Below the pieces are notes generated by a model. That model was not told where the DNA came from. It worked only from the letters and a program-made list of their open reading frames with translations, and made no database searches. Position numbers and translations under genes: made by a program. This document shows positions 28,068 to 45,297 of a DNA stretch of 64,000 nt, in pieces (position 1 is the first letter of the stretch; every line of letters begins with the position of its first letter). Origin of the DNA: Alphaproteobacteria bacterium (GTDB lineage: Bacteria; Pseudomonadota; Alphaproteobacteria; MPNO01); the NCBI GenBank assembly GCA_964291675.2, contig OZ219866.1:1504001-1568000 (forward strand). Reading direction: 5' to 3'.

Positions 28068-29264
28068 TCAGCCGTTCCACAGCCGTTCGCTGGCGAGCTT
28101 CGCGCCTTCGGCGAGCGCGCCGAGCTTGGCCCATTGCACGCTCGGGTGGACGCGGCGGTGGAACGGGCCCTGGGCGAAGCCGCAATCGGTCGAGGCGATG
28201 ACGTTCTCCCGCCCGACCAGCCCGGCGAGACGCAAGATGCGCTCGGCGACCAGCTCGGGATGCTCGACGACGTTGGTGGCGTGGCTGATCACGCCCGGGA
28301 TCAGCAGCTTGCCGTCGGGCAGCGTCACGTCCTTCCACACCGCCCATTCGTGCTCGTGGCGCGGGTTCGCCATCTCCAGCACGTAGGCGCCGGCGTTGAC
28401 GCTCAGGATCAGGTCGACGATGTCGCGGATCGGGACGTCGCTCGTATGCGGGCCGGGCCAGCTCCCCCAGCAGACGTGGTAGCGCACCCGTTCCGGCGGG
28501 ATTCCGTCGAGCGCGTGGTTGAGCGCCTCCATGTGGAGGGCGAGCCACGCGCGGTAGTCCCGCATGGTCGCCGGCGGGACCATGCGGTCATAGGTGACCG
28601 CCGCGCGCGCGTCGTCGATCTGGACCAGCAGCCCGGCCTCGGCGATGGTCCGGTACTCGACCCGCATGGCGTCGGCGATGGCGAACACCAGCGCCTCGTC
28701 GCTCTCGTAGCACTCGTTCTTCCTATCCGGGATGACGCTCGCCGGCGCGGCGACGGGCAAAAACCCCTCCGCCACGTCGACCTCGGCGAGCGCCGCCTTG
28801 AAGTTGCCGATGTCGCGCTCCAGCGCATCGTGGCCGGTATAGGCGATCGGCGCGACGCAGACCGACTCGTAGCGCGCGCCGGCGCCGCCGTCGAAGCGTC
28901 CCTGCGCCCGGTCCTGCGCGTCGAGCTCGGCGTAGAACTCGGGAAAGCGCTCCCGGTCGAGGCCGCGGGCGAACGGGTCCGCCGCGCCGGGCGCCACCGG
29001 GCGCCGCTCGAACCCGTCCAGACGTTCGAGCACGTATTGCGACCAGCTGATCGACTTGCCGAACTCGCCGTCGCTGATGACGTCGACCCCGGTCTCCGCC
29101 TGGCGCCGCGCGATCTCCGCCACCGACCCGGCGAGCACGCTCCGGTGATACGCCTCGTCCACCGCGACGCCGTTCTGCCTTGCCGTCAGGATGTCCCGGA
29201 TCGCCTTCGGCCGGATCAGGCTCCCCACATGGGTGGTGAGAATGCGCTCTTCGCTCCGTTTCAC
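28068..29264 (-). CDS. Cobalamin-independent methionine synthase II family protein
   Basis: ILTTHVGSL, SDGEFGK, HVCWGSWPGPH, EMANPRHEHE, VEHPELVAERI, STDCGF. Confidence 0.88.
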   Translation of the reverse strand: MKRSEERILTTHVGSLIRPKAIRDILTARQNGVAVDEAYHRSVLAGSVAEIARRQAETGVDVISDGEFGKSISWSQYVLERLDGFERRPVAPGAADPFARGLDRERFPEFYAELDAQDRAQGRFDGGAGARYESVCVAPIAYTGHDALERDIGNFKAALAEVDVAEGFLPVAAPASVIPDRKNECYESDEALVFAIADAMRVEYRTIAEAGLLVQIDDARAAVTYDRMVPPATMRDYRAWLALHMEALNHALDGIPPERVRYHVCWGSWPGPHTSDVPIRDIVDLILSVNAGAYVLEMANPRHEHEWAVWKDVTLPDGKLLIPGVISHATNVVEHPELVAERILRLAGLVGRENVIASTDCGFAQGPFHRRVHPSVQWAKLGALAEGAKLASERLWNG

Positions 29265-32524: not shown

Positions 32525-33115
32525 TCAGGCGGCGGTTCGCCAGGGCCTGCCGGACGGGCGTCCGCGAAGCGGATGAGCCCTGGCATAGAGTTCGGCGGCT
32601 GCGAAAGCCTCGCCTGGAACCTCCGGATAGTCGGCCGCAAGGTCGCCCAGCGTGTCGCCGTCCCGCAACCGTCCGAGGATCGCATAAACCGTCAACCGCG
32701 TTCCCGCGATCACCGGCGTCCCGCCCAGGATGTCGGGATCGGACGCAATGTACCGGTCGCGCGCATCCCGGTATCGCTCCGCGGCGCGCAGCGCCTCCCC
32801 CGAGAGCCGTCGCAGGTCGAGCGTCGCTCCGCGGGCGAATTCGACGGTCCCGAGGCGCTTGGGTTCCAGCCGCGCCAGGCGGATCCAGATGGCCCGCTTG
32901 TGGCGCAATGGGAGGTCCGTGAGGCTCGCGGCTTCGAGCGAGTGAAAATAGGCGACGGCCCGGATCGGCAAGAATCGCGTCGCCCCGCCGCGAAAGCGGG
33001 GCGGGGCGGTCACGGCCCGCAAGATCCCCGCTTGCAGCGCTTTCTCTACCGTCGCCTTCGGCACCCGTGACAGGGCGGCGGTCTCCCGAACGGTCAAGTC
33101 GGCGGCGGGTTGCAT
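32525..33115 (-). CDS. DUF433-domain protein (antitoxin-like, with an N-terminal HTH)
   Basis: C-terminal DPDILGGTPVIAGTRLTVYAIL...LAADYPEV; N-terminal LTVRETAALSRV. Confidence 0.8.
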   Translation of the reverse strand: MQPAADLTVRETAALSRVPKATVEKALQAGILRAVTAPPRFRGGATRFLPIRAVAYFHSLEAASLTDLPLRHKRAIWIRLARLEPKRLGTVEFARGATLDLRRLSGEALRAAERYRDARDRYIASDPDILGGTPVIAGTRLTVYAILGRLRDGDTLGDLAADYPEVPGEAFAAAELYARAHPLRGRPSGRPWRTAA

Positions 33116-33249
33116 TAATCGTTTCCCATCAGATACGAATATAATTCCGGCGACCGGGACGGCAAGGTCGTGCGGCGCGAGGTCGAACGGTCTTGCCTTG
33201 CCGCCTCGCCGCGGGGACAATCCGCGGAGGCTTGGGATGGGGCGGAGCG

Positions 33250-34065
33250 ATGGCCACGGTCCTGGAAGACAGACATATCAGCGACGAGGAGCGGGCGGCG
33301 TGGCGGCGCGACGGGGCGCTCCGCCTGCGCGGCGTGGTGGCGCCGGAGTGGCTCGAGCTGCTCGCCGAGGGGATGGCCGCCGCGATCGCCGAGCCGAGCG
33401 AGGTCGCCAAGGATTACGGCGAGGGCGAGAGCCGGTTCCACACCGACCACGGCATGTTCCTGCGCTTCGAGCAGTTCCGCCGCTTCATGCACGAATCGCC
33501 GATGGCAAGACTCGCCGCCGAGCTGATGGGGGCGAGCCGGATCAATCTCTATGACGAGCATCTGCTGATCAAGGAGCCCGGCACCGACACGCCCACCTGG
33601 TGGCATCACGACTTGCCCTATTTCCGCATCAAGGGCTCGCAGATCTGCAGCTTCTGGGTGCCGCTGGACCCGGTGACGGAGGAAACGGGCTCGCTCCGCT
33701 TCGCGGTCGGCTCGCACGCCTGGGGCAAGTTGTTCCGCCCGGTCAGGATCGGCCGCGGCGATTTCGTGCCCGAGACCGAGCAGTTCGACGACACGGTGCC
33801 CGACATCGACGGCGATCCCGAGCGCTACCCCACGGTCTGCTTCGACCTCGACCCGGGCGACGTGGCGGTGTTCCACGGCGCGACCCTGCACGCGGCCAAC
33901 GGCAACCCGTTGCCGACGCCGCGCCGCGCGGTCTCGCTCCGCTTCTGCGGCGACGACATCACCTGGAATCCGGGGCGCTACTCGCCGACCTTCTACGACG
34001 CGCCGCATCTCGTCGAAGGCGGGCCGATCGACGCCGAGATCTTTCCGAGACTCTGGACCCGTTGA
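33250..34065 (+). CDS. Phytanoyl-CoA dioxygenase (PhyH) family 2OG-Fe(II) oxygenase
   Basis: KEPG...WHHD, WVPLD, GSLRFAVGSH, PGDVAVFHGATLH, RRAVS. Confidence 0.88.
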   Translation: MATVLEDRHISDEERAAWRRDGALRLRGVVAPEWLELLAEGMAAAIAEPSEVAKDYGEGESRFHTDHGMFLRFEQFRRFMHESPMARLAAELMGASRINLYDEHLLIKEPGTDTPTWWHHDLPYFRIKGSQICSFWVPLDPVTEETGSLRFAVGSHAWGKLFRPVRIGRGDFVPETEQFDDTVPDIDGDPERYPTVCFDLDPGDVAVFHGATLHAANGNPLPTPRRAVSLRFCGDDITWNPGRYSPTFYDAPHLVEGGPIDAEIFPRLWTR

Positions 34066-34078
34066 CCGGCCCGCGGAG

Positions 34079-34939
34079 TCACGGCCAGGCGACGACGGGC
34101 GGCAGCGACATCAGGATCGCCTCCACGTTGCCGCCGGTCTTCAGGCCGAACTCGGTGCCCCGGTCGTAGAGCAGGTTGAACTCGACATAGCGCCCGCGCC
34201 GGATGAGCTGATGGGCGCGCTGCGCCTCGGTCCAGGGCGCGGCCATGCGCTCGCGGACGATTTTGGGATAGCTCTCCAGAACCGCGCAGCCCACGTCCCG
34301 GGTGAAGGCGAAATCGGCCTCCCAGTCGCCGCTCGCCAGATTGTCGTAGAAAATGCCGCCGGCGCCGCGCGGCTCGTCCCGGTGGGGCAGGAAGAAATAC
34401 TCGTCGCAGGCCTGCCTGTAGGTTGCGTAGCGGCCGGGATCGTAGGGGTCGCAGGCGGCCTTGAGCGCGGCGTGGAAGGCGGCCGCCGCGTCCTCGTCCG
34501 GGTAGATCGGGGTCAGGTCGCCGCCGCCGCCGAACCAGGCCTTGGCGGTGACGATGAAGCGCGTGTTCATGTGCATCGCCGGCACCAAGGGCGAGCGCGG
34601 ATGGGCGACCAGCGAGATGCCGCTCGCCCAGAAGCTGGGATCGTCCTCCGCGCCCGGGATGCGATGCTGGAACTGGGCCGAGAAGCGGCCGTGGACGGTG
34701 GAGAAATTGACCCCCATTTTCTCGAACACGCGGCCCTTCATGATCGACATCTCGCCGCCGCCGCCATCCGAGCCGTCCTCGGTCGGCCGCCGCCAGGTGC
34801 TGCGTTCGAACCGCCCGGGCGGGCCGGGCCCGTGCGCGTGCTCGTCCTCCAGCGCTTCGAAGGCGGCGCGGAAACGGTCGCGCAGGGTGCGGAACCATGC
34901 CGCCGCGCGCTGCTGCCTGTCCGCGACCGTCATCGCCAC
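34079..34939 (-). CDS. hemF: Oxygen-dependent coproporphyrinogen III oxidase
   Basis: [54 protein letters not shown]. Confidence 0.96.
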
Positions 34940-35133
34940 CTGGGTCCTTGATTCGGAGACGGATTCGATTATACCCGTTGCCCTGCCCGTTGCGCGATCC
35001 GGGCGGCGGGCAGCGGTTCCGGAGGCGGCCGCGCGGCCGCATTCCCGGGCAGCGTTGCGGCGCGCGCCGGCGGCGGCTAGTTTTCGCCGCTGCGGACCGT
35101 AACGTATCTTCCTGCCTGCCGAGAGGTTGCTCC

Positions 35134-35685
35134 ATGGCGGATTCCGAGGACACCAGGGCCGGCGACGGCCACGGCGAGACGCGCCGCGATTTTCTCTATC
35201 TGGCGACCGGCGCGTTCGGCGCGGCGGGCAGCGCGGTCGCGCTGTGGCCGCTGATCCACCAGATGAGCCCGGCCAAGGACACGCTGGCGCTGGCGACCAC
35301 CGAGGTCGACCTGTCGCCGATCGAGGTGGGGCAGAGCATCACCGTGGTGTGGCGCGGCAAGCCGGTCTTCGTGCGCCGGCGCACCGAGGCCGAGATCGAG
35401 CAGGCCGAGACGGTGGCGCTCGACGACCTGCCCGATCCCCAGCCGGACGGTCAGCGGACCAAGAAGCCCGAATGGCTGATCGTGGTCGGCGTCTGCACCC
35501 ATCTCGGCTGCATCCCCAAGGGGCAGGCGACGGGCGACAGGAAGGGCGATTTCGGCGGCTGGTTCTGCCCCTGCCACGGCTCGCACTACGACACCTCGGG
35601 ACGCATCCGCAAGGGGCCCGCGCCGGAGAACCTGGCGGTGCCGTCCTACGAGTTCCTGTCCGACAGCCTCGTGCGCATCGGCTAG
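35134..35685 (+). CDS. petA: Cytochrome bc1 Rieske iron-sulfur subunit
   Basis: Tat motif RRDFL, CTHLGC, CPCHGS, GPAP. Confidence 0.96.
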
Positions 35686-35697
35686 GGGGGAAAGTCC

Positions 35698-36978
35698 ATG
35701 CCGCAGCCCTGGATGAAGAACCGCCTGGTCCAGTGGATCGACTACCGCCTGCCGATGTTCTCCTTCGCCGAGAAGGAGCTGATCGACTACCCGACGCCGC
35801 GCAATCTCAGCTACTGGTGGAATTTCGGCTCGCTCGCCGGGATCGTGCTGGTCATCATGATCGTGACCGGCATCGTGCTGGCGATGCACTACACGCCGCA
35901 TGTCGATCACGCCTTCGACAGCGTCGAGCGCATCATGCGCGACGTGAACTATGGCTGGTTGATCCGCTACATCCACACCAACGGCGGATCGGCCTTCTTC
36001 GCCATCGTCTACATCCACATCTTCCGCGGGCTGTACTACGGCTCCTACAAGTCGCCGCGCGAGATCCTGTGGATCCTGGGCGTGGTCATCCTGCTCTGCA
36101 TGATGGCCACCGCGTTCATGGGCTACGTGCTGCCCTGGGGCCAGATGAGCTTCTGGGGCGCGACGGTGATCACCAACTTCTTCTCGGCGATACCCATCGT
36201 CGGCGACACCATCGTGACCTGGCTGTGGGGCGGCTTCACGGTCGACAACCCGACGCTGAACCGGTTCTACAGCCTGCACTATCTGATGCCCTTCGTGATC
36301 GTCGGCGTGGTCGCCCTGCACCTGGTCGCGCTGCACCAGCACGGCTCGAACAACCCGCTCGGCATCGACGCCAAGGGGCCGCAGGACAAGATCCCGTTCC
36401 ACCCCTACTACACCGTCAAGGACATGTTCGGGCTGAGCGCGTTCCTGACGATCTTCGCGGGCTTCGTGTTCTTCGCGCCCAACTTCTTCGGCGAGCCCGA
36501 GAACTACATCCCGGCCGACCCGCTGCTGACGCCGCCGCATATCGTGCCCGAATGGTACTTCCTGCCGTTCTACGCGATCCTGCGCGCCATCACCTTCGAC
36601 ATCTGGTTCCTGTCGGCCAAGCTGCTCGGCGTGGTGGCGATGTTCGGCTCCGTCCTGGTGCTGTTCATCGTCCCCTGGCTCGACCGCTCGCCGGTGCGCA
36701 GCGCGCGCTACCGGCCGATCTACAAGCAGCTCTTCTGGGTGCTGGTGATCGACTGCCTGGTGCTGGGCTGGGTCGGCGGCAACCCGCCCGAGGGCATGTT
36801 CGTGATCATCGGCCAGATCGCGACGCTCTACTACTTCGCCCATTTCCTGATCCTGATGCCGCTGCTCTCGGTGATCGAGACGCCGCGCCCGCTGCCGACC
36901 AGCATCGCCGAGCCGGTGCTGGGGGGAAGCGCCGGGCCGCCGGCGGCGGCGCCGCAGCCGATGGAGAAGGCGCAATGA
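35698..36978 (+). CDS. petB: Cytochrome b
   Basis: [29 protein letters not shown]. Confidence 0.97.
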
Positions 36979-37739
36979 GGCGGACCGTCGGAGCCATCCT
37001 CGCCGCGCTCGCGCTGGCCGGCGCGAGCCCGGCCGCCACCGCCGCCGATGCCGTCGCCCCGCCGAGCATGAAGTGGACCTTTGACGGGCTGTTCGGGTCC
37101 TTCGACCGGGCGGCGCTGAGGCGCGGCTTCCAGGTCTACACCGAGGTCTGCGCGGTCTGCCATTCGCTGCGCCTCGTCCACTACCGCAATCTGACCGAGA
37201 TCGGCTTCTCCGAGGATCAGGTGAAGGCGATCGCCGCCGAGGTCGAGGTCGCCGACGGCCCCGACGCCGAGGGCGAGATGTTCGACCGCCCCGCCCGGCC
37301 GAGCGACCGCTTCGTCTCGCCGTTTCCCAACGACAACGCCGCGCGCGCGGCCAATAACGGCGCGCTCCCGCCCGATCTGTCGCTGGTGGCCAAGTCGCGC
37401 ATCGGCGGCGCCGACTACCTCTACGGGCTGATGGTCGGCTACCGGGAAGCGCCGGCGGAGATGGAGATGTCCGAGGGCATGGAATACAACGCCTATTTCC
37501 CGGGCCATCAGATCGCCATGCCGGCGCCGCTGAGCGAGGATTTGGTGGAATACGCCGACGGCACCGAGGCGACGGTGAACCAGATGGCGAAGGACGTGAC
37601 CAACTTCCTCGTCTGGACCGCCGAGCCCGAGCTCGAGGAGCGCAAGCGCATGGGCGTCAAGATCGTGCTCTTCCTGATCCTGCTCACCGGCATGCTGTAC
37701 GCGGTCAAGCGCGCGATCTGGTCCGACGTTCCGCATTGA
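36975..37739 (+). CDS. petC: Cytochrome c1
   Basis: Signal peptide, CAVCH, PPDLS, IAMP, C-terminal TM helix; ATGA overlap with petB. Confidence 0.96.
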
Positions 37740-37781
37740 GCCCGCATTGTGGGGGCCGCCGCCCCAGGGGGGAGAGACGCC

Positions 37782-38669
37782 ATGGCGGAGCCCGGAACGC
37801 CACCGGTTATCGGCATCGTCGGCGGCAGCGGGCTCTACGATATCGACGGGCTGACCGACCGGCGCCGGGAGGCGGTGGACACGCCCTTCGGCGCGCCGTC
37901 CGACGAGATCCTGCTGGGCACGCTCGGCGGGCAGGCGCTCGCCTTCCTGCCGCGCCACGGGCGGGGCCACGCGACGCCGCCGGGCGAGATCAACTTCCGC
38001 GCCAATATCGATGCGCTCAAGCGCGTCGGCGCGACCGAGATCCTGTCGCTGAGCGCCGTCGGCAGTCTCGACGAGGCGCTGGCGCCGGGCACCTTCGTGC
38101 TGGTCGACCAGTTCATCGACCGTACCTTCCGGCGCATCAAGACCTTCTTCGGGACCGGGCTTGTGGCGCATGTGTCGATGGCCGACCCGGTCTGCCCCCG
38201 GCTCGGCGACGCGCTGGAAGAGGCCGCGTCCGGAATCGGCATCGAGACCGTGCGCGGCGGCACCTATGTGGCGATCGACGGCCCGCAATTCTCCAGCCGG
38301 GCCGAGTCCGAGCTCTACCGCTCCTGGGGCGCCGACGTCATCGGCATGACCAACATGCCGGAGGCCAAGCTCGCCCGCGAGGCCGAGATGTGCTACGCGA
38401 CCGTGGCGATGGTCACCGACTACGATTGCTGGCATCCGGGCCATGACGACGTGACGGTGGAGGCGGTGATCGAGGTGCTGCAGGCGAACGCGGCGCGCGC
38501 CCGGCGGCTCGTCGAAGCGGCGGTGCCGCTGCTGGCCGGGCGCGACGCGGCCTGCCCGGCAGGCTGCCATACGGTGCTCGACACCGCGCTGATCACCCCG
38601 CCGGGCGCGCGCGACCCCGGGCTCGCGGCGAGGCTCGACGCGGTGGCGGGGCGCGTGCTCCGGCAATGA
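37782..38669 (+). CDS. mtnP: S-methyl-5'-thioadenosine phosphorylase
   Basis: IVGGSGLY, PRHG, GPQFS, IGMTNMPEAKLAREAE, VTDYDCW. Confidence 0.93.
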   Translation: MAEPGTPPVIGIVGGSGLYDIDGLTDRRREAVDTPFGAPSDEILLGTLGGQALAFLPRHGRGHATPPGEINFRANIDALKRVGATEILSLSAVGSLDEALAPGTFVLVDQFIDRTFRRIKTFFGTGLVAHVSMADPVCPRLGDALEEAASGIGIETVRGGTYVAIDGPQFSSRAESELYRSWGADVIGMTNMPEAKLAREAEMCYATVAMVTDYDCWHPGHDDVTVEAVIEVLQANAARARRLVEAAVPLLAGRDAACPAGCHTVLDTALITPPGARDPGLAARLDAVAGRVLRQ

Positions 38670-39766
38670 AGGTCGACGGGGTCCCCCGGCGGTCGATCCA
38701 GCTCGCGGCCGACGGCAAGACCGTCGAGATCGTCGACCAGACCCTCCTGCCGCACCGCTTCGAGATCGCGCGGCTGTCCACGCTGGAGGACGCGGCGGCG
38801 GCGATAAGCGACATGAAGGTGCGCGGCGCGCCGCTGATCGGCGCCACCGCGGCCTACGGGCTCTGCCTCGCCGTCCGCCGCGACCCGTCCAGGGGCTCGG
38901 TCGAGGCCGCCTGTTCGACGCTTCTCGCGACCCGCCCGACGGCGGTCAATCTGCGCTGGGCGCTCGACGGCATGAAGTCCCGCATCCTCGCCGTCGACGC
39001 GGCGAAGCGGGCCGATGCGGCCTATGCGCGCGCGGCCGAGATCTGCGACGAGGACGTGGCGATCAACCGGGCGATCGGCGAGAACGGGGCGGAGCTGCTG
39101 CGCGACACCGCGGCGCGCCGCGCGGGACCGGTCAACGTGCTAACCCACTGCAACGCCGGCTGGCTCGCCACCGTCGACGGCGGCACCGCGCTCGCCCCGA
39201 TCTACCGCGCCCACGATGCCGGCGTCGAGCTCCATGTCTGGGTGGACGAGACCCGGCCGCGCAACCAGGGCGCCGGGCTGACCGCCTGGGAGCTCGCCGC
39301 CCACGGCGTGCCGCACACCGTGATCGTCGACAACGCGGGCGGCCATCTGATGCAGGACGGCAGGGTCGATCTCTGCATCACCGGCACCGACCGGACCTGC
39401 GCCAACGGCGACGTGTGCAACAAGATCGGCACCTATCTGAAGGCGCTCGCCGCCTCCGACAACGAAATCCCGTTCTACGTCGCCCTGCCCGGCCCGACCA
39501 TCGACTGGACGGCCGAGAGCGGCGCCGACCTGCCGATCGAGGAGCGCGCCGGGGCGGAGGTCGCGACCGCGACCGGCGAGACCGAGGCGGGCGAGATCCG
39601 CACCGTCCGCCTGACGCCGGCGGCAAGCCCGGTCTTCAACCCGGGCTTCGACGTGACCCCGGCACGGTTGGTGACCGCGCTGATCACCGAGCGCGGCGTC
39701 GCCGAGGCGTCGGCGCAAGGCCTGCTCGCGCTCTACCCGGAGCGGCGGCGGGCACAGGCGGGGTAG
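38666..39766 (+). CDS. mtnA: S-methyl-5-thioribose-1-phosphate isomerase
   Basis: DQTLLP, VRGAP, RPTAVNL, THCNAGWLA, DETRPRNQG, NKIGT, FDVTP. Confidence 0.95.
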   Translation: MKVDGVPRRSIQLAADGKTVEIVDQTLLPHRFEIARLSTLEDAAAAISDMKVRGAPLIGATAAYGLCLAVRRDPSRGSVEAACSTLLATRPTAVNLRWALDGMKSRILAVDAAKRADAAYARAAEICDEDVAINRAIGENGAELLRDTAARRAGPVNVLTHCNAGWLATVDGGTALAPIYRAHDAGVELHVWVDETRPRNQGAGLTAWELAAHGVPHTVIVDNAGGHLMQDGRVDLCITGTDRTCANGDVCNKIGTYLKALAASDNEIPFYVALPGPTIDWTAESGADLPIEERAGAEVATATGETEAGEIRTVRLTPAASPVFNPGFDVTPARLVTALITERGVAEASAQGLLALYPERRRAQAG

Positions 39767-39772
39767 GCGGAG

Positions 39773-41803
39773 ATGCACAGCCTCTATTCGGCGCGCGATG
39801 CCGCCCGCACGGTCTCGCGCTACGCGGCCGGGGGCGTCCCGGAGGACGTGGCGCTCCGGGTCTACACCACGAGGCTCTTGGGCGGCGATCCCGCGCTGGT
39901 GCTGCATGGCGGCGGCAACACCTCGGTCAAGACCGCGATGACCGATCTGCTCGGCGAGACGGCCGACGTGCTGTGCGTCAAGGGCTCGGGCTGGGACATG
40001 GCCGATATCGAGCCCGCGGGCCTGCCCGCGGTCCGGCTCGAGCCGCTGCGCCGCCTCGCCGCGCTGGACCGGCTCGGCGACGAGGAGATGGTGGATTTCC
40101 AGCGCGTCAACCTGCTCGACCCGCGCGCGCCCAACCCGTCGACGGAGACTTTGCTGCACGCCTTCCTGCCGCACAAATTCGTCGACCACACGCATGCCGA
40201 CGCGGTGCTCGCGCTCACCGATCAGCCCGACGGCGAGGCGATCTGCCGCGAGGTCTATGGCGGGACGATGGGGCTGGTGCCCTATGTCATGCCGGGCTTC
40301 GCGCTTGCCAGGGCCTGCGCCGCGGCCCACGCCGAGGACCCGTCGGTCGAGGGGCTGATCCTGCTCAAGCACGGCGTGTTCACCTTCGGCGCGACCGCCG
40401 AGGAGGCCTATGAGCGGATGATCGCCACGGCCGACAGGGCCGAAGCGCATGTCGCGCGGCGCCGCGCGAGCGTGCCGGTACCGCGCGTCGCAGCCACCGG
40501 GCCGGACGTGCCGGCCGCCGCGGTCGCGCCCATCCTGCGCGGGCTTGCGAGCGGCGCCGGCCGGCTCGTGCTCGACTTCCGCGGCGGCCCCGAGGTGCGC
40601 GCCTTGGTGGATCGCGAGGGGCTCGAACGCGCGACCTCGGGCCCGGTCACGCCCGACCACGCGATCCGCACCAAGCCGCTTCCGCTGATCCTGGCGCCGC
40701 CCCGGAAGGGCGCGCTGGACGCCTTCGCGCGCGACGCCAGGGCGGCGATGGACGGCTTCGTCGGCAATTACCAGGCCTATTTCGCGCGCAACAACGCCCG
40801 CCAGGCGGCGCCCAAGCGGGCGCTCGACCCCTACCCAAGGGTGATCCTGGTCCCCGGGCTCGGGCTGTTCGGCCTCGGCGCCTCGTCGCGCGCCGCCGCC
40901 ATCGCCGCCGACCTCGCCGAGACCACGGCGCGGGTGATCGCCCAAGCCGAGTCCATCGGCCGGTTCGAGAGCATCTCCGAGGCCGACGTCTTCGATATCG
41001 AGTACTGGTCGCTGGAGCAGGCGAAGCTCGGCAAGGCGGCGGAGAAGCCGCTCGCCCGCCATGTCGTCGCGGTGACCGGCGGCGCGTCGGGGATCGGCCG
41101 GGCGACGGCGGAAGCGTTCGCCGGCGCGGGGGCGGAGGTTGCGATCCTCGACCGCGACCGCGCGGCGGCGGAAGCGGCCGCGGCGGCGCTCGGCGCGCGC
41201 GCCGTCGCCTGCGACGTGACCGATGCCGCCTCGGTGACCGCGGCGTTCGATGCCGTGGCCGAATCCTTCGGCGGGCTCGACATCCTGGTCTCGAACGCAG
41301 GCGCCGCGTGGCAGGGCCGGATCGGCGAGGTCGACGAGGCGGCGATCCGCGAGAGCTTCGAGCTCAACTTCTACGGCCACCAGCGCGCCGCGCAGGCGGC
41401 GGTTCGCATCTTTCGGGCGCAGGGGCTGGGCGGCGTGCTGCTGTTCAACGCCTCCAAGCAGGCGGTCAACCCGGGCCCCGGTTTCGGACCCTACGGCCTC
41501 GCCAAGGCGGCGACGCTGTTCCTGATGCGGCAATACGCGCTCGACCACGGCGCCGAGGGCATTCGCGCCAACGCGGTCAACGCCGACCGCATCCGGAGCG
41601 GGCTGATGACCCGGGCGAGGATCGAGGAACGCGCCCGGGCGCGCGGCGTCTCGACCGAAGCGTACATGGCCGGCAACCTGCTCGGCCGCGAGGTGACGGC
41701 CGACGATGCCGCGCGCGCGTTCGTCGACCTCGCGCTGGCCGAAAAGACCACCGGGGCGGTGCTCACCGTCGACGGCGGCAACATCGCCGCCGCGCTCAGA
41801 TAG
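39773..41803 (+). CDS. Bifunctional class II aldolase / short-chain dehydrogenase (RhaEW-like)
   Basis: GGGNTSVK, KGSG, PSTETLLH, DHTH, KHG in the aldolase part; EYWSLEQAKL linker; TGGASGIG, NAG, YGLAK, VDGG in the SDR part. Confidence 0.9.
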   Translation: MHSLYSARDAARTVSRYAAGGVPEDVALRVYTTRLLGGDPALVLHGGGNTSVKTAMTDLLGETADVLCVKGSGWDMADIEPAGLPAVRLEPLRRLAALDRLGDEEMVDFQRVNLLDPRAPNPSTETLLHAFLPHKFVDHTHADAVLALTDQPDGEAICREVYGGTMGLVPYVMPGFALARACAAAHAEDPSVEGLILLKHGVFTFGATAEEAYERMIATADRAEAHVARRRASVPVPRVAATGPDVPAAAVAPILRGLASGAGRLVLDFRGGPEVRALVDREGLERATSGPVTPDHAIRTKPLPLILAPPRKGALDAFARDARAAMDGFVGNYQAYFARNNARQAAPKRALDPYPRVILVPGLGLFGLGASSRAAAIAADLAETTARVIAQAESIGRFESISEADVFDIEYWSLEQAKLGKAAEKPLARHVVAVTGGASGIGRATAEAFAGAGAEVAILDRDRAAAEAAAAALGARAVACDVTDAASVTAAFDAVAESFGGLDILVSNAGAAWQGRIGEVDEAAIRESFELNFYGHQRAAQAAVRIFRAQGLGGVLLFNASKQAVNPGPGFGPYGLAKAATLFLMRQYALDHGAEGIRANAVNADRIRSGLMTRARIEERARARGVSTEAYMAGNLLGREVTADDAARAFVDLALAEKTTGAVLTVDGGNIAAALR

Positions 41804-41962
41804 CGCGCGCCGAGAAGGGAGGCTGGTATAGGGCGGCTGATGGGTTTTCCGGGCCAAGCAGCCTCGTCCCATTGCCCGCTTCGTGTCCTGCTGTCATCAT
41901 CGTCGAGAGGCGCCGCCGCGGATCAGGTCTATAGGCGCCCAGGCTCGCACGAGCGAAGGTCG

Positions 41963-42637
41963 ATGAGCGAGCAACAGTTGGTGGTAATCTTGGCCTCGTC
42001 CTCGGTCGCGGCCGCCGCTCTTGCCTTTCTTCTCAAGCTGGCGCGTGACTTCGTCGCCGACAAGAGTCGCCAGTCCGCCAGCCTGCGGATCGTGACCGTC
42101 TATGTCCGGCTCGCCGTCAAGGAGTGGGACCACGAGGACATGGACCCTGCTCGCGGGACGGAGCGCAGGGTTGTCAACCTATCGACGATCATCGAGAAGA
42201 TCCGGGAGCCCCGGCGCGAGGGCAGCGAACTGGACCCGTTTACACCCTATATCGCCTTCTCCGCGCATGACGACCTCAGCGTCTCGGAGGTGCGCGATTT
42301 CCTCGGATTCCTGGACAGCACGACTATCGAAAGTGTGGTGGACTTCATCCAAGCCGAAGCGCTGGTCCATGCGCTCGCCCAAGACCTGAGGAGCGAGTTC
42401 GTGCGGCGACAGTTTAGCCAAGAGAGAAAAATCGCCTTGGTGGAACTGATCAGCGACCGGACCGTCTACGCCTACGACGCTGGCCGGAAAGTCCTCCAGA
42501 CTCTCCGGCCCTACGAGACATGTCCTCGACTGCTGTGGTGCCTGCCCTTCGGCTTCCGCATCTGGCGACTGGGCCGCGCGGTCTGCCAAATGGTCCTCAA
42601 AACATCGGCAGGGTGCCGGGTCCGCAGGTGCTCATGA
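41963..42637 (+). CDS. Hypothetical protein with an N-terminal TM anchor
   Basis: 224-aa ORF with a hydrophobic N-terminus and atypical codon usage; no family recognised. Confidence 0.6.
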   Translation: MSEQQLVVILASSSVAAAALAFLLKLARDFVADKSRQSASLRIVTVYVRLAVKEWDHEDMDPARGTERRVVNLSTIIEKIREPRREGSELDPFTPYIAFSAHDDLSVSEVRDFLGFLDSTTIESVVDFIQAEALVHALAQDLRSEFVRRQFSQERKIALVELISDRTVYAYDAGRKVLQTLRPYETCPRLLWCLPFGFRIWRLGRAVCQMVLKTSAGCRVRRCS

Positions 42638-42839
42638 CTGGCTCTCGACGTTGGCGCAAGCTTCATTGTCAATGTGGCCTCCACCGCCAAGACGGTCAAG
42701 CACCATCTCGCGGGCTGCGTCTCCCGCCGCGCCAGGAAGAGCAGAAAGGCGACGACAAGACCGAACCGGAAACGGTTTGACTTTCAATTCCAGAAGAGCG
42801 CTGGGCGTGGACCCGGCGCTTTCTCTGGGCGAACTGCCG

Positions 42840-43514
42840 CTACCCCACATGCTCGGCGAACAGCGCGAGGGCGCGGTCGTGGCAGCGCTGCTCGGCGCCC
42901 CGGTTGTAGACGTCGCGGTCGTCGCAGCAGAAGCCATGCGCGGAATCGTCGTAGACGAAGCTGGGGACGTCGGGGTGGGCGTCGCGGATCGCCTGGACGT
43001 CGCCCATCGGGATCGCGTGGTCCTTGTCGCCGAAATGCAGCTGCATCGGCATGCGCGGCGTGTCGTTCGCCGCCCGCGCGGCGACGCCGCCGCCATAGCA
43101 GCTCACCGAGCAGGCGAGGCTGTCGAGATTGCAGCCGCTGATCCAGGCGACATAGCCGCCGAAGCAATAGCCGATCAGCCCCACCTTGCCCGCATCCGAG
43201 ACCGCCTTCGCCGCCGCGTCCACGTCGGCCAGGATCCAATCGTCGGAGAGCCCGCCGCGCAACCCCCGGCCCTTGGCGAAGGACTCCTCGTCATAGCCGA
43301 GCTCGACGCCCTTCTCCGAGCGGTCGAACAGGGCGGGCGCGATCGCCGCATAGCCCTTCCCGGCGAACATGTCGACGAGGTGCCGGACATGGCTGTTGAC
43401 GCCGAAAATCTCCTGGATCACCACGACGCCGCCCTTGGCGGCTCCCGACGGGTCGGTCCTGTAGGCGTCCAGCGCGTGGCCGTCGCCGGCGGTAAGCGTA
43501 ACGGTCTGTCCCAT
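42840..43514 (-). CDS. Dienelactone hydrolase family protein
   Basis: QEIFGVN, GYCFGG, FGDKD, HGF. Confidence 0.9.
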   Translation of the reverse strand: MGQTVTLTAGDGHALDAYRTDPSGAAKGGVVVIQEIFGVNSHVRHLVDMFAGKGYAAIAPALFDRSEKGVELGYDEESFAKGRGLRGGLSDDWILADVDAAAKAVSDAGKVGLIGYCFGGYVAWISGCNLDSLACSVSCYGGGVAARAANDTPRMPMQLHFGDKDHAIPMGDVQAIRDAHPDVPSFVYDDSAHGFCCDDRDVYNRGAEQRCHDRALALFAEHVG

Positions 43515-43582
43515 GTCCCCGATCTCCCCTGGATGGAATGGATGGCGGCCCGGAACGGGCCCGAGATGGCCGAATTCTAGCG

Positions 43583-44680
43583 TCAAACGTTGAACCGAAA
43601 AAGGATCACATCCCCGTCGCGGACGATGTAGTCGCGCCCTTCGCGGCGCATCTTCGCGGCTTCCCTGGCGGCGACCTCTCCGCCGCATGCCACGAAGTCG
43701 TCGAACGCGACGGTCTCGGCGGCGATGAAGCCGCGCGCGAAATCCGAGTGGATCCTGCCCGCCGCGTCCTGGGCGCGGGTGCCGCGCTCGACCGTCCAGG
43801 CGCGGGTCTCGACCGGGCCCGTGGTGAAAAACGTGATCAGCCCGAGCAGGTCGTACCCGGCGCGCACGACACGGCCGAGCCCGGCCTCTTCCAGCCCCAG
43901 CGTCTCGAGAAATCCGCGCCGCTCGTCGTCGTCTTCGAGCTGGGCGATCTCGGCCTCGATGGCGGCCGAGACGACCACCGACGGCGCCCCCCTCTCCGCC
44001 GCCCAGCGGGCGATTTCCGCCGCGTGCGCATCGCCTTCGGCCGCGGCGTCCTCGTCGACGTTGCAGACATAGAGCACCGGCTTGGCGGTAAGCAGCTGCA
44101 ATTGGCGGAACGGGGTTTCCTCGTCCGCGCCGATCTCCATGTCGAGCGCCGGCCGGCCGTCCTCCAGCAGGGCGATCGCGCGGATCGCCACGTCGCGCAG
44201 CGCCGTCGCCTCCCTGTCGCCGCCCCGCGCCTTCTTGGCCAGCGGATCGAGGCGCCGCGTCAGGCTGTCGAGGTCGGCCAGCAACAGCTCGGTCTCGACG
44301 ATTTCCGCATCCGCGAGCGGATCGACCGAGCCCGCCCGGTCGACATCCCGGCCCTCGAAACAGCGGAGCACGTGGGCGATGGCGTCGACCTCGCGGATAT
44401 GGGCGAGAAACTGGTTGCCGAGCCCCTCCCCCCGGCTCGCCCCGCGGACCAGGCCGGCGATGTCGACGAAGTCGAGCTGGGCAGGGGTGATCTTCGGAGA
44501 CTTGGCCAGCGCGGCGATCCGGGCGAGGCGGTCGTCCGGCACCGCGATGCGGCCGAGATTGGGCTCGACGGTGGAGAACGCGTAGTTCGCCGACACCGCG
44601 GCGCGCGACTGGACGAGGGCGTTGAACAGGCACGATTTCCCGACATTGGGAAGCCCGACGATGCCGCAGCGGAAGCCCAT
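43583..44680 (-). CDS. ychF: Redox-regulated ATPase YchF
   Basis: GIVGLPNVGKS, DIAGLVRGASRGEGLGNQFL, IHSDF, DGDVILFRFNV. Confidence 0.96.
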   Translation of the reverse strand: MGFRCGIVGLPNVGKSCLFNALVQSRAAVSANYAFSTVEPNLGRIAVPDDRLARIAALAKSPKITPAQLDFVDIAGLVRGASRGEGLGNQFLAHIREVDAIAHVLRCFEGRDVDRAGSVDPLADAEIVETELLLADLDSLTRRLDPLAKKARGGDREATALRDVAIRAIALLEDGRPALDMEIGADEETPFRQLQLLTAKPVLYVCNVDEDAAAEGDAHAAEIARWAAERGAPSVVVSAAIEAEIAQLEDDDERRGFLETLGLEEAGLGRVVRAGYDLLGLITFFTTGPVETRAWTVERGTRAQDAAGRIHSDFARGFIAAETVAFDDFVACGGEVAAREAAKMRREGRDYIVRDGDVILFRFNV

Positions 44681-45297
44681 CAGCGCTCGGCCCCGGCATC
44701 TCCCGCCGCCGCCTTCCTGGCCGGCCTGGGCCGGGGGCAGAGCAGCGCCACCCTGGTCATGAAGCCGGGATCGTCGCCGGCGACGGCGAGCGGCAGCGCC
44801 TCGGCGATGGCCTCGGCGAGCTTGGCGAATAGCGGGCGTTCCTCGGCGGCGAAATCGCCCAGCACGTGGCGCTGCACGCGGTGCTTGTCGCCGGGATGGC
44901 CGATGCCGACGCGGATCCGCCGGTAATCCGGCCCGATCTGGGTATGCAGGCTCCGGAGCCCGTTATGCCCGGCATGGCCGCCGCCCTGTCTGATCAGCAC
45001 CTTGCCCGGGGCGAGGTCGAGCTCGTCATGGACGACCAGGGCGTCGCGGGCGCGCAGCTTGTAGAAGTTGAGCGCCGCGCGCACCGCCCGGCCCGACTCG
45101 TTCATGTAGGTCTCGGGCTTGAGCAGCAGCACCCGCGCGCCGCCGATCTCGCCGCTCTGTGCCCGGCCCTGGAAGCGGCGCCTCGGTGCCGAGAAGCCGT
45201 AGCGCGCGGCGATGGTGTCGGCCACGACATAGCCGATATTGTGCCGCTGGCGCGCGTATTTGGGCCCGGGATTGCCGAGCCCGACGACGATCAACAT
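44680..45297 (-). CDS. pth: Peptidyl-tRNA hydrolase
   Basis: VGLGNPG, RHNIG, TYMNESG, HDELD, GHNGLRS, RIRVGIG. Confidence 0.96.
   Translation of the reverse strand: MLIVVGLGNPGPKYARQRHNIGYVVADTIAARYGFSAPRRRFQGRAQSGEIGGARVLLLKPETYMNESGRAVRAALNFYKLRARDALVVHDELDLAPGKVLIRQGGGHAGHNGLRSLHTQIGPDYRRIRVGIGHPGDKHRVQRHVLGDFAAEERPLFAKLAEAIAEALPLAVAGDDPGFMTRVALLCPRPRPARKAAAGDAGAER

What the first reader, a model, noticed from the sequence alone, without database searches (positions are those of the whole stretch)
37782..41803. mtnP-mtnA operon completed by an aldolase-SDR fusion: candidate one-protein DHAP-shunt finish
Seen: mtnP and mtnA overlap (ATGA), and the 676-aa class II aldolase-SDR fusion starts 6 nt after mtnA. 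No rhamnose genes and no mtnB/C/D are in the window. Established: in the DHAP shunt (Rhodospirillum rubrum, Rhodopseudomonas palustris), MtnP, MtnA and a stand-alone class II aldolase (Ald2) convert MTA or 5'-deoxyadenosine to DHAP plus methylthioacetaldehyde or acetaldehyde, which a separate dehydrogenase then reduces. RhaEW fusions cleave rhamnulose-1-phosphate and act on the lactaldehyde. Inference: this RhaEW-like fusion replaces Ald2 and processes the reactive aldehyde itself, a variant that automated annotation would likely label as rhamnose catabolism.
Basis: partly seen in the sequence, partly recalled or inferred. Interest (0 to 1): 0.7.

Follow-up and report, generated by a model that had tools for sequence, protein, structure and literature searches.

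The report
Fused aldolase-dehydrogenase finishing methylthioadenosine salvage
An alphaproteobacterial operon joins the first two methylthioadenosine-recycling genes to a fused aldolase-dehydrogenase that sits exactly where related bacteria carry the known small aldolase, so it very probably finishes this salvage route in one protein, although no enzyme assay exists yet.

Summary
mtnP (37782-38669), mtnA (38666-39766, ATGA overlap) and a 676-aa class II aldolase-SDR fusion (39773-41803, 6 nt after mtnA) form one tight + strand cluster.

The genome (93.7% complete) gave no MtnB, MtnC, MtnD or RuBisCO-like protein over cut-off, and no rhamnose isomerase or mutarotase.

- **Relatives in the same order:** the fusion follows mtnA within 50 nt in 28 of 35 genomes that have it. 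Three relatives without it carry a stand-alone FucA-like aldolase there instead.
- **Even sample of 301 genomes of the class:** among 138 MtnA-positive genomes, 44 have only the fusion, 70 only the small aldolase, and 2 both.
- **Same slot:** both aldolase types occupy the petBC-mtnP-mtnA-[aldolase]-ychF position.
- **Separate from RhaEW:** fusions in rhamnose loci form a distinct clade, NF006189/TIGR02632. This protein is NF006192, a family with no named function.

Whether the dehydrogenase half reduces or oxidises the aldehyde is unknown.

No paper that I could search describes this. The scan noted the same thing before on other DNA. I rate it a new variant of a known pathway.

The parts
37782..38669 (+). 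mtnP, S-methyl-5'-thioadenosine phosphorylase (an alternative GTG start lies at 37749)
   Evidence: NF006492 484 bits, cut-off 437; PF01048 159 bits. The stop overlaps the mtnA start as ATGA.
38666..39766 (+). mtnA, S-methyl-5-thioribose-1-phosphate isomerase
   Evidence: TIGR00512 406.1 bits, cut-off 279; PF01008 216 bits.
39773..41803 (+). 676-aa fusion of a class II aldolase and a short-chain dehydrogenase (NCBIfam NF006192). Proposed 5-methylthioribulose-1-P / 5-deoxyribulose-1-P aldolase with a built-in aldehyde oxidoreductase.
   Evidence: NF006192 997.5 bits, cut-off 639; TIGR02632 464 bits, below its 567.75 cut-off. AlphaFold2 model: mean pLDDT 91.3, pTM 0.89. Context, co-occurrence and displacement evidence.
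39863..40447 (+). Class II aldolase domain (residues 31-225)
   Evidence: PF00596 83 bits. H45-G-G-G-N49, S51, K53, H139, H141 and H200 are invariant in 23 diverse homologues. E125 is invariant there but is D in the rha clade. Foldseek: 3m4r, TM 0.90 relative to the target, 42% identity.
40478..41047 (+). Conserved central region (residues about 236-425) with no Pfam family
   Evidence: No Pfam hit. It contains invariant G290, P294, D295, F407, E410, W412, E415 and K418. It is modelled with high confidence except residues about 231-250.
41063..41779 (+). Classical SDR domain (residues 431-669)
   Evidence: adh_short 131 bits, adh_short_C2 145.3 bits. G436, I441, G442, D460, Y574 and K578 are invariant; S561 is nearly so. 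Foldseek matches NAD(H)-dependent SDRs.
34897..37739 (+). petABC (Rieske protein, cytochrome b, cytochrome c1) directly upstream. It is the conserved left flank of the mtn slot, not part of the pathway.
   Evidence: Pfam. petB/petC flank the mtn genes in 14 of 28 linked fusion loci and 8 of 20 Ald2-type loci.
43583..45297 (-). ychF and pth, the conserved right flank of the slot
   Evidence: Pfam. ychF is present in 8 of 28 linked fusion loci and 7 of 20 Ald2-type loci.
41821..41848 (+). Weak terminator-like hairpin with a T-rich tail just after the fusion stop
   Evidence: Consensus scan only: 8 sites in the 10 kb scanned, against 3.3 expected from shuffles. This is not evidence of function.

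Best explanation
mtnP-mtnA-fusion is a three-gene version of the DHAP shunt for the S-adenosylmethionine by-products 5'-methylthioadenosine and, probably, 5'-deoxyadenosine.

- MtnP phosphorolyses the nucleoside.
- MtnA isomerises the ribose-1-phosphate to 5-methylthioribulose-1-P or 5-deoxyribulose-1-P.
- The N-terminal metal-dependent class II aldolase domain of the 676-aa protein cleaves this to dihydroxyacetone phosphate plus 2-(methylthio)acetaldehyde or acetaldehyde.
- The C-terminal NAD(H)-type SDR domain converts the reactive aldehyde on the same polypeptide.

The fusion is a non-orthologous replacement of the small FucA-like aldolase Ald2/DrdA, and it also supplies the dehydrogenase that is unidentified in the known pathway.

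Shown here: gene identities, architecture, intact catalytic motifs, conserved linkage, co-occurrence with MtnA, mutual exclusion with Ald2-like genes in the same chromosomal slot, and separation from rhamnose-locus RhaEW.

Inferred: the substrates, the aldol cleavage itself, and the direction of the SDR step. That step could be reduction to the alcohol, as in the known shunt, or NAD+-dependent oxidation to methylthioacetate/acetate, as RhaW does with lactaldehyde. I hold these two about equally likely.
For: (1) **Gene identities.** Both mtn genes score over the curated cut-offs. The fusion scores over the NF006192 cut-off but under that of the rhamnose model TIGR02632.

(2) **Order level** (41 genomes).
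- 35 genomes have the fusion.
- mtnA lies upstream on the same strand within 50 nt in 28 of the 35, within 250 nt in 30, within 2.2 kb in 34, and within 10 kb in all 35.

(3) **Same-order relatives without the fusion.** All 3 whose loci I fetched (G022, G035, G024) have mtnA followed directly by a FucA-like aldolase of 213-219 aa.

(4) **Even class sample of 301 genomes**.
- 54 genomes have an orthologous fusion; 49 of them have MtnA, against 89 of the other 247.
- Among the 138 MtnA-positive genomes: 44 fusion only, 70 Ald2-like only, 5 MtnB only, 2 fusion plus Ald2-like (those hits are only 39-40% identical to the query), 3 fusion plus MtnB, 4 Ald2-like plus MtnB, 10 none.

(5) **Linkage of fetched fusion loci.**
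- 28 of 49 class-level loci have mtnA and/or mtnP upstream on the same strand within 5 kb.
- 35 of 80 named loci do so within 7 kb, among them Pelagibacteraceae, Ruegeria, Mesorhizobium, Rhizomicrobium and a cyanobacterium.

(6) **Same slot.** petB-petC-mtnP-mtnA-Ald2like then ychF/pth (for example L166, L170, L174, L175) mirrors the window's petB-petC-mtnP-mtnA-fusion ... ychF-pth.

(7) **Tree of 135 fusions**.
- The 8 proteins with rhamnose isomerase or kinase neighbours form one clade (support 100).
- The window's protein lies in a separate clade of 124 (support 100) holding 66 mtn-linked, 55 unlinked and 3 RLP-linked rows, and none with rhamnose genes.
- None of the 11 low-identity loci has mtn genes.

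(8) **Catalytic motifs** of both domains are invariant. Clade-specific residues cluster in the SDR pocket (563-575, 587-588, 606-608, 624, 635) and in the aldolase domain (E125 against D, Y171 against W).

(9) **Own genome.** No MtnB, MtnC or MtnD, no RuBisCO-like protein, no FucA-like Ald2 and no rhamnose genes were found.

(10) **Precedent.** RhaEW performs exactly this two-step logic on rhamnulose-1-P (PMC3870299, passages read).
Against: - No assay or mutant exists for any member of this clade in the papers I could search. Everything about substrate and chemistry rests on context.
- Linkage is not universal. 21 of 49 class-level loci and 45 of 80 named loci show no mtn gene nearby. About 10 of these sit on contigs with less than about 2 kb upstream.
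- The basal members outside the Alphaproteobacteria (Sorangium, other Myxococcota, Nitrospina) show none, and the Chlorobi, which branch inside the alphaproteobacterial part of the tree, also show none.
- 5 of 54 fusion genomes gave no MtnA: G121, G181 and G156 are 79-84% complete, G195 has a truncated fusion, and G070 is a 1.4-Mb genome.
- The genome has three other class II aldolase-family proteins of unknown function, and one of them could act on methylthioribulose-1-P.
- Related genomes are not independent, so the Fisher values overstate significance.
- The only assayed relative oxidises its aldehyde and needs NAD+ even for cleavage. The chemistry may therefore differ from the known shunt.
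- Neighbour genes in fetched loci were called with my own heuristic. Linkage itself was scored by tblastn.
Confidence: 0.75

Rival explanations
1. The fusion does act downstream of MtnA, but not as an aldolase. The class II aldolase-fold domain works as a dehydratase (like MtnB), an epimerase or an isomerase on 5-methylthioribulose-1-P, and the SDR domain oxidises or reduces the sugar-phosphate product. This would open an undescribed methionine-salvage branch.
For: - MtnB, AraD-type epimerases and decarboxylases share this fold: the NCBIfam hits of the paralogues include such families.
- In Chlorobi the homologue sits with a RuBisCO-like protein, a DeoC-family aldolase and a second SDR. That hints at more elaborate ketose-phosphate chemistry.
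- The genetic evidence (linkage, exclusion with Ald2) fits any enzyme that consumes the MtnA product.
Against: - The only characterised relative with the same architecture, RhaEW, is an aldolase.
- TIGR03328 (MtnB) finds nothing at this gene.
- MtnC and MtnD, which would be needed after a dehydratase, were not found over cut-off.
- Replacement of Ald2 in the same slot is explained most simply by the same reaction.
Confidence: 0.12
2. The fusion is a deoxy-sugar-phosphate aldolase/dehydrogenase (rhamnulose-1-P, fuculose-1-P or similar) unrelated to MTA. Its place beside mtnA is inherited synteny without functional coupling.
For: - 35% identity and the same architecture as RhaEW.
- JGI names call it a rhamnose utilisation protein.
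- About half of the orthologues are not next to mtn genes.
Against: - No rhamnose isomerase or mutarotase in the genome.
- None of the 124 rows of its clade has RhaI or kinase neighbours, whereas 8 of the 8 rha-clade rows do.
- 49 of 54 fusion genomes have MtnA, against 89 of 247 others.
- Near-perfect exclusion with Ald2-like genes.
- mtnA and the fusion lie 2-50 nt apart in 28 of 35 relatives.
- In other genomes mtnP rather than mtnA directly precedes it (L026, L030, L032, L042), so the link was rebuilt more than once.
Confidence: 0.06
3. The aldolase half does the DHAP-shunt cleavage, but the SDR half does not process the aldehyde. It is a regulatory or structural NAD-binding module, or it acts on an unrelated substrate.
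For: - In RhaEW the aldolase activity depended on NAD+. That could reflect allosteric coupling.
If true, the aldolase can work without it.
Against: - The catalytic S561, Y574 and K578 and the glycine-rich NAD motif are conserved across the clade.
- The clade-specific residues line the SDR pocket region. That pattern is what selection on a substrate site would produce.
Confidence: 0.05

Closest known systems
DHAP shunt aldolase Ald2 (Rhodospirillum rubrum, Rhodopseudomonas palustris, E. coli) / DrdA (Bacillus thuringiensis), EC 4.1.2.62
   Same: - It occupies the same position after mtnA, in the same petBC-mtnP-mtnA-X-ychF slot.
- It belongs to the same superfamily (PF00596).
- The same reaction is proposed.
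- The two are mutually exclusive in genomes.
   Different: - No BLASTP-level similarity to the stand-alone Ald2-like protein of a same-order relative (best E 0.027).
- About 3 times longer, with a conserved central region and a fused SDR.
- The known pathway leaves the alcohol dehydrogenase unidentified (PMC5893883 and PMC6302742, passages read).
RhaEW (YuxG of Bacillus subtilis, Caur_2283 of Chloroflexus aurantiacus); NCBIfam TIGR02632 / NF006189
   Same: - Same three-part architecture.
- 35% identity over the full length to alphaproteobacterial rha-locus members.
- Shared H139/H141/H200, GGGNTS, D460, S561, Y574 and K578.
- Same logic: an aldolase followed by a dehydrogenase acting on the released aldehyde.
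   Different: - Below the TIGR02632 cut-off (464 against 567.75).
- A separate clade.
- None of the 124 clade members lies next to rhamnose genes.
- Clade-specific residues in both pockets.
- Linked to mtnA/mtnP instead.
NCBIfam NF006192 'bifunctional aldolase/short-chain dehydrogenase' (equivalog with no function stated)
   Same: The window's protein scores 997.5 bits against a cut-off of 639. SAR11, Ruegeria, Nitrospina and other mtn-linked proteins score over the cut-off too.
   Different: The family carries no substrate or pathway assignment. This report proposes one.
MtnB, methylthioribulose-1-phosphate dehydratase (TIGR03328)
   Same: Same fold superfamily and the same proposed substrate.
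   Different: - No match of TIGR03328 at this gene.
- MtnB is rare in the class (13 of 301 genomes over cut-off).
- The downstream MtnC and MtnD were not found here.
PDB 3M4R, N-terminal class II aldolase domain of a conserved Thermoplasma acidophilum protein
   Same: The closest solved structure to residues 16-228: phmmer E 8e-50; Foldseek TM 0.90 relative to the target, 42% identity.
   Different: It is a domain only, and its function is uncharacterised. No full-length fusion has been solved.

Membership tests
DHAP shunt (MtnP or MtnN+MtnK, MtnA, Ald2) | MTA phosphorylase and MTR-1-P isomerase are present and clustered | tested here: met
   NF006492 at 484 bits (cut-off 437) and TIGR00512 at 406.1 bits (cut-off 279), with the genes overlapping.
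DHAP shunt (MtnP or MtnN+MtnK, MtnA, Ald2) | The aldolase is an orthologue of the FucA-like Ald2/DrdA | tested here: not met
   BLASTP of residues 1-235 against the mtnA-adjacent 213-aa aldolase of G035 gives a best E of 0.027. No Ald2-like hit in the own genome at E <= 1e-25.
DHAP shunt (MtnP or MtnN+MtnK, MtnA, Ald2) | Cleavage of 5-methylthioribulose-1-P / 5-deoxyribulose-1-P to DHAP plus an aldehyde | not testable with these tools
   Inferred from positional replacement and mutual exclusion.
RhaEW (TIGR02632 / NF006189) | Class II aldolase + central region + SDR on one chain, with catalytic motifs intact | tested here: met
RhaEW (TIGR02632 / NF006189) | Score over the curated cut-off of the rhamnulose-1-P models | tested here: not met
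   TIGR02632: 464 bits, cut-off 567.75. NF006189: 433.8 bits, cut-off 634. Rha-locus proteins score 949-1230 bits on these two models.
RhaEW (TIGR02632 / NF006189) | Encoded within a rha locus (isomerase, kinase, DeoR regulator, transporter) | tested here: not met
   No RhaA, RhaI or RhaM in the genome. The neighbours are petABC, mtnP, mtnA and ychF.
RhaEW (TIGR02632 / NF006189) | Falls in the clade of rha-locus proteins | tested here: not met
   FastTree: the rha clade of 8 (support 100) is separate from the clade of 124 that holds the window's protein.
NCBIfam NF006192 | Score over the curated cut-off along the full length | tested here: met
   997.5 bits, cut-off 639; residues 1-676 align to model positions 1-685.
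Class II (metal-dependent) aldolase superfamily, PF00596 | Pfam match, plus a conserved histidine triad and an acidic catalytic residue. The roles of these residues are assigned by recalled analogy with FucA/RhaD, not by any search. | tested here: met
   83 bits against a cut-off of 22.2. H139, H141, H200 and E125 are invariant in 23 homologues.
Classical SDR | Glycine-rich dinucleotide motif, Ser-Tyr-Lys catalytic residues, and an acidic residue after the second strand that suggests NAD(H). The meaning of these motifs is recalled knowledge. | tested here: met
   T435-G436...I441-G442, D460, S561, Y574 and K578 are conserved. adh_short 131 bits.
MtnB dehydratase (TIGR03328) | Score over the cut-off of 137.05 | tested here: not met
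   The genome search gives no match at this gene. The best match elsewhere is 31.4 bits.

The most novel reading that the evidence does not exclude
The NF006192 clade is the main finishing enzyme of MTA/5'-deoxyadenosine disposal in roughly a third of MtnA-bearing Alphaproteobacteria, including SAR11 and roseobacter lineages.

Like RhaEW, it would couple aldol cleavage obligatorily to NAD+-dependent oxidation. These bacteria would then turn MTA into DHAP plus methylthioacetate (and 5'-deoxyadenosine into DHAP plus acetate), rather than the 2-(methylthio)ethanol of the known shunt. That would be a different organosulfur end product, with consequences for sulfur salvage in organisms that cannot reduce sulfate.
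Probability: 0.3. Interest if true: 0.75.

Novelty: new variant of a known kind. Interest (0 to 1): 0.62.

Why it matters
Every cell that uses S-adenosylmethionine has to dispose of MTA and 5'-deoxyadenosine.

- **A gap in many genomes.** In the even sample of Alphaproteobacteria, only 13 of 301 genomes had MtnB, while 138 had MtnA. Most of them therefore need another exit from methylthioribulose-1-P. The small Ald2 explains 70 of the 138. The fusion would explain a further 44 that currently look incomplete.
- **A candidate for a missing enzyme.** It supplies a concrete candidate for the unidentified dehydrogenase of the DHAP shunt.
- **An annotation fix.** It corrects a widespread 'rhamnose utilisation' label.
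- **A testable question.** It makes the fate of the sulfur-bearing aldehyde, alcohol or acid, directly testable with one recombinant protein.
- **Ecological reach.** Members occur in abundant marine groups, Pelagibacteraceae and Ruegeria-type bacteria.

Tried and rejected
**Transcription.** The one RNA run that shared words (X23) and two other holders were available only as contigs. Fragments 88-99% alike cover parts of mtnP, mtnA and the fusion. They come partly from relatives and cannot show a transcript, a strand or an operon. I draw no conclusion from them.

**Promoter scan.** No sigma-70-like site in 34000-44000, and only weak terminator-like hairpins. This is uninformative in a 70% G+C genome.

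**Literature.**
- Searches for a described aldolase-SDR in MTA salvage found none.
- Searches failed on term syntax.
- The two papers most likely to show gene-cluster surveys were not held: North et al. 2017 PNAS (PMC5715764) and North et al. 2020 Mol Microbiol (absent from the search listing).
- Supplements are closed, so I could not see the gene-cluster figures of Beaudoin et al. 2018.
- I could not establish the architecture of R. palustris Ald2 (RPA4655). The only held paper naming it gives no length.

**A common neighbour among unlinked fusion loci.** Clustering of neighbours found none. The largest group was RNase E upstream, in 7 loci of Xanthobacteraceae type or unnamed Alphaproteobacteria.

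**Ethylene branch.** No NifH-like protein that could belong to a methylthio-alkane reductase is in the genome.

**Structure.** The model is confident, but Foldseek returned only single-domain matches. It says nothing about channelling between the two sites.

**Downstream ORFs.** The ORF at 41840-42637 is not conserved in the closest relatives. The + strand ORF at 42651-43580 is probably the shadow of a - strand gene. Neither is counted as part of the system.

Full report
**What is there.** The window has about 70% G+C. On the + strand three genes are packed together.
- 38666-39766 scores 406.1 bits on TIGR00512, S-methyl-5-thioribose-1-phosphate isomerase (cut-off 279).
- 39773-41803 encodes 676 aa with Pfam Aldolase_II at residues 31-225 and a short-chain dehydrogenase domain at 431-669.
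- The mtnA ATG overlaps the mtnP TGA (ATGA). The fusion's ATG comes 6 nt (GCGGAG) after the mtnA stop.

Directly upstream lies petABC for the cytochrome bc1 complex (34897-37739). Downstream on the other strand lie ychF, pth, the gene for ribosomal protein L25, and prs.

**The rest of the genome.** The assembly held for this window (2 contigs, 4.8 Mb, 93.7% complete) gave:
- no match over cut-off for MtnB, MtnD/ARD or MtnC;
- none at all for RuBisCO-like proteins;
- none for either type of rhamnose isomerase or for the mutarotase;
- no second copy of the fusion;
- no FucA-like Ald2 at E <= 1e-25.

Three other Aldolase_II proteins exist. They fall in adducin-like or decarboxylase-like families of unknown function. 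The fusion is therefore the only obvious candidate to use the product of MtnA, although those three paralogues cannot be excluded.

**Which kind of aldolase-SDR it is.** NCBIfam splits these fusions into about ten models.
- The window's protein passes NF006192, which is named only 'bifunctional aldolase/short-chain dehydrogenase' (997.5 bits, cut-off 639).
- It fails the rhamnulose-1-phosphate models TIGR02632 (464 bits, cut-off 567.75) and NF006189 (433.8 bits, cut-off 634).
- Alphaproteobacterial fusions found next to a rhamnose isomerase-like gene, an FGGY kinase, a DeoR regulator and a sugar ABC transporter pass those two models with 949-1230 bits. They are 35% identical to the window's protein.

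**Linkage among near relatives.** Of 41 genomes of the same order, 35 have the fusion and 40 have MtnA. In the 35, mtnA lies upstream on the same strand:
- within 50 nt in 28;
- within 250 nt in 30;
- within 2.2 kb in 34 (three have two opposite-strand genes inserted, and one has both genes broken);
- 10 kb away in the last one.

I fetched the mtnA locus of three of the relatives that lack the fusion (G022, G035, G024). In all three, mtnA is followed directly by a stand-alone aldolase of 213-219 aa whose best NCBIfam matches are L-fuculose-phosphate aldolase models. This is the Ald2 arrangement of the published DHAP shunt.

**An even sample of the class.** In 301 genomes drawn evenly from the class, 54 have an orthologous fusion (44-69% identity) and 138 have MtnA. 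Set arithmetic on the tables gives:
- 49 of the 54 fusion genomes have MtnA, against 89 of the other 247;
- MtnB over cut-off is rare, at 13 of 301;
- an Ald2-like protein occurs in 85 genomes, and in 54 of them it lies within 150 nt of mtnA.

| Among the 138 MtnA-positive genomes | Genomes |
|---|---|
| Fusion only | 44 |
| Ald2-like only | 70 |
| MtnB only | 5 |
| Fusion + Ald2-like (both hits only 39-40% identical to the query) | 2 |
| Fusion + MtnB | 3 |
| Ald2-like + MtnB | 4 |
| None of the three | 10 |

Related genomes are not independent, so the Fisher values printed are descriptive only. The pattern is nonetheless that of two alternatives for one job. These tallies include one unpublished genome, G279, which has a fusion and MtnA on different contigs. 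Leaving it out changes 54/49/44 to 53/48/43.

**The same chromosomal slot.** I fetched 49 fusion loci from that sample. All orthologous full-length hits were taken except G279. The fragmentary hits of G183, G156 and G262 were not fetched.
- 28 of the 49 have mtnA and/or mtnP upstream on the same strand within 5 kb. In several, mtnP rather than mtnA directly precedes the fusion.
- Of these 28, 14 also have petB/petC and 8 have ychF in the fetched stretch.
- None of the 21 unlinked loci has either flank.
- Of 20 Ald2-type loci fetched for comparison, 8 have petC, 7 have ychF and 6 have both. Examples read petB-petC-mtnP-mtnA-Ald2like followed by ychF and pth on the other strand (L166, L170, L174, L175).

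That is the window's own order, with the small aldolase in place of the fusion. By BLASTP the two aldolases are not detectably similar (best E 0.027), so this is a non-orthologous replacement in place.

**Beyond the class.** A pattern scan of one genome per species, using an alignment of 23 diverse homologues, returned its best 80 of at least 599 confirmed loci. These come from many alphaproteobacterial families and also from Cyanobacteria, Chlorobi, Nitrospinota and Myxococcota.
- 35 of the 80 have mtnA or mtnP within 7 kb.
- In three Pelagibacteraceae loci the fusion lies tail to tail with mtnA-mtnP.
- In Ruegeria-type loci a SorC-family regulator sits between mtnA and the fusion.
- About 10 of the 45 unlinked loci are on contigs with less than about 2 kb upstream.
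- In Sorangium the gene follows an ArsR-methyltransferase and S-adenosylhomocysteine hydrolase.
- In Chlorobi it heads a cluster with a DeoC-family aldolase, a RuBisCO-like protein and another SDR.

**Tree.** A FastTree of 135 full-length fusions was built. One row, L121, was dropped for a run-on frame; partial genes were left out.
- The 8 rows with rhamnose neighbours fall in one clade (support 100).
- The window's protein falls in a separate clade of 124 (support 100) with 66 mtn-linked, 55 unlinked and 3 RLP-linked rows. None has a rhamnose neighbour.
- mtn linkage is scattered through the whole alphaproteobacterial part of that clade, including its deep branches. The Myxococcota and Nitrospina rows at its base are unlinked.
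- The program warns of long branches between the rha clade and two odd rows (L072, L073). That does not touch the main split.

**Residues and fold.**
- In the 23-sequence alignment the following are invariant: H45-G-G-G-N49, S51, K53, E125, H139, H141 and H200 in the aldolase half, and G436, I441, G442, D460, Y574 and K578 in the SDR half. S561 is nearly invariant.
- Reading these as phosphate site, metal ligands, catalytic acid, NAD motif and the Ser-Tyr-Lys triad is recalled knowledge, not a tool result.
- Comparing the 124-row clade with the rha clade, these catalytic positions are shared except E125, which is D in the rha clade.
- 45 positions are fixed differently. They are concentrated at 563-575, 587-588, 606-608, 624 and 635 in the SDR half and at 111-127 and 171 in the aldolase half. 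This pattern is expected if the two clades bind different substrates.
- AlphaFold2 gives a confident model (mean pLDDT 91.3, pTM 0.89).
- The nearest solved structure for the N-terminal part is 3M4R, an uncharacterised aldolase domain. The C-terminal part matches ordinary NAD(H) SDRs. No full-length relative has been solved.

**How it most likely works.** MtnP and MtnA make 5-methylthioribulose-1-P from MTA, and by the known promiscuity of these enzymes probably 5-deoxyribulose-1-P from 5'-deoxyadenosine. The aldolase half releases DHAP. The SDR half then removes the reactive aldehyde.

The direction of that last step is open.
- The published shunt reduces 2-(methylthio)acetaldehyde to the alcohol through an unidentified dehydrogenase (PMC5893883, PMC6302742, PMC10986504; passages read).
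- The assayed relative RhaEW oxidises lactaldehyde to lactate with NAD+, showed no activity with NADH, and made no DHAP without NAD+ (PMC3870299, passages read).
- The conserved D460 fits NAD(H) in both clades.
- The genome has no NifH-like protein for the ethylene-forming branch.

**What is known and what is new.** The DHAP shunt and RhaEW are both published. I found no paper linking an aldolase-SDR fusion to MTA salvage (searches; passages read). Limits on this claim:
- North et al. 2017 and 2020 are not held.
- Supplements are closed.
- I could not learn the architecture of R. palustris Ald2.

Among the 120 best database relatives, NCBI names are neutral, JGI names say 'rhamnose utilization protein RhaD', and none mentions MTA.

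The scan itself has noted the same association before on other DNA: a SAR11-type genome and a betaproteobacterial relative with a decayed SDR half. My SAR11 loci agree with the first of these. I did not test the second.

**Verdict.** The finding is a real feature. I rate it a new variant of a known pathway.

Noticed in passing
L139, L142, L146 (Chlorobiaceae loci); e.g. L142:2556-8429: In green sulfur bacteria the fusion homologue (NF006193) heads a cluster of a DeoC/LacD-family aldolase, a RuBisCO-like protein and a second SDR. The function of this RLP type is, to my recollection, unsettled. The cluster may be a related ketose-phosphate pathway.
   Followed up: partly
L156:4536-9070 and L160 (Sorangium cellulosum): The fusion homologue (NF006195) directly follows an ArsR-domain SAM methyltransferase and S-adenosylhomocysteine hydrolase. 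This is another SAM by-product context, without mtnA nearby.
   Followed up: partly
L022 (G204:C28), fusion at 8430-10541 on the - strand: A different subfamily (NF006194, 831 bits; 42% identical to the window's protein) lies 3.7 kb from mtnP-mtnA on the opposite strand, in a genome with neither the NF006192 fusion nor an Ald2-like gene.
   Followed up: no
L023:5929-7158 (G230): An IS256-family transposase is inserted between mtnA and the fusion.
   Followed up: no
L025:2676-3323 (G136); also 175-aa genes in L048, L054, L056: Adenine phosphoribosyltransferase sits between mtnP and mtnA in G136. That fits salvage of the adenine released by MtnP. Genes of 175 aa occupy the same place in three other loci but were not annotated.
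   Followed up: partly
L024:4738-6169 (G103): Two stand-alone SDR genes lie between mtnA and the fusion.
   Followed up: no
window 41840-42637 (+): A 265-aa ORF 36 nt after the fusion has no Pfam match, lower third-position G+C (0.77 against about 0.92 for its neighbours) and no counterpart in the closest relatives. It is either a strain-specific gene or not a gene.
   Followed up: partly
window 42651-43580: The + strand ORF of 309 aa has no Pfam match. Relatives match this stretch, but in two of the three closest a gene of about 224 aa was called there on the - strand, next to ychF. The + frame is therefore probably a shadow.
   Followed up: partly
window 28068-29264 (-): A 398-aa protein matches the cobalamin-independent methionine synthase catalytic domain only weakly and only near its N-terminus (PF01717, E 1.4e-9, residues 9-70). 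It is a MetE-like protein of unclear role about 8.5 kb from the mtn genes.
   Followed up: no
window 32525-33220 (-): A 231-aa protein combines an HTH_17-like segment with DUF433.
   Followed up: no
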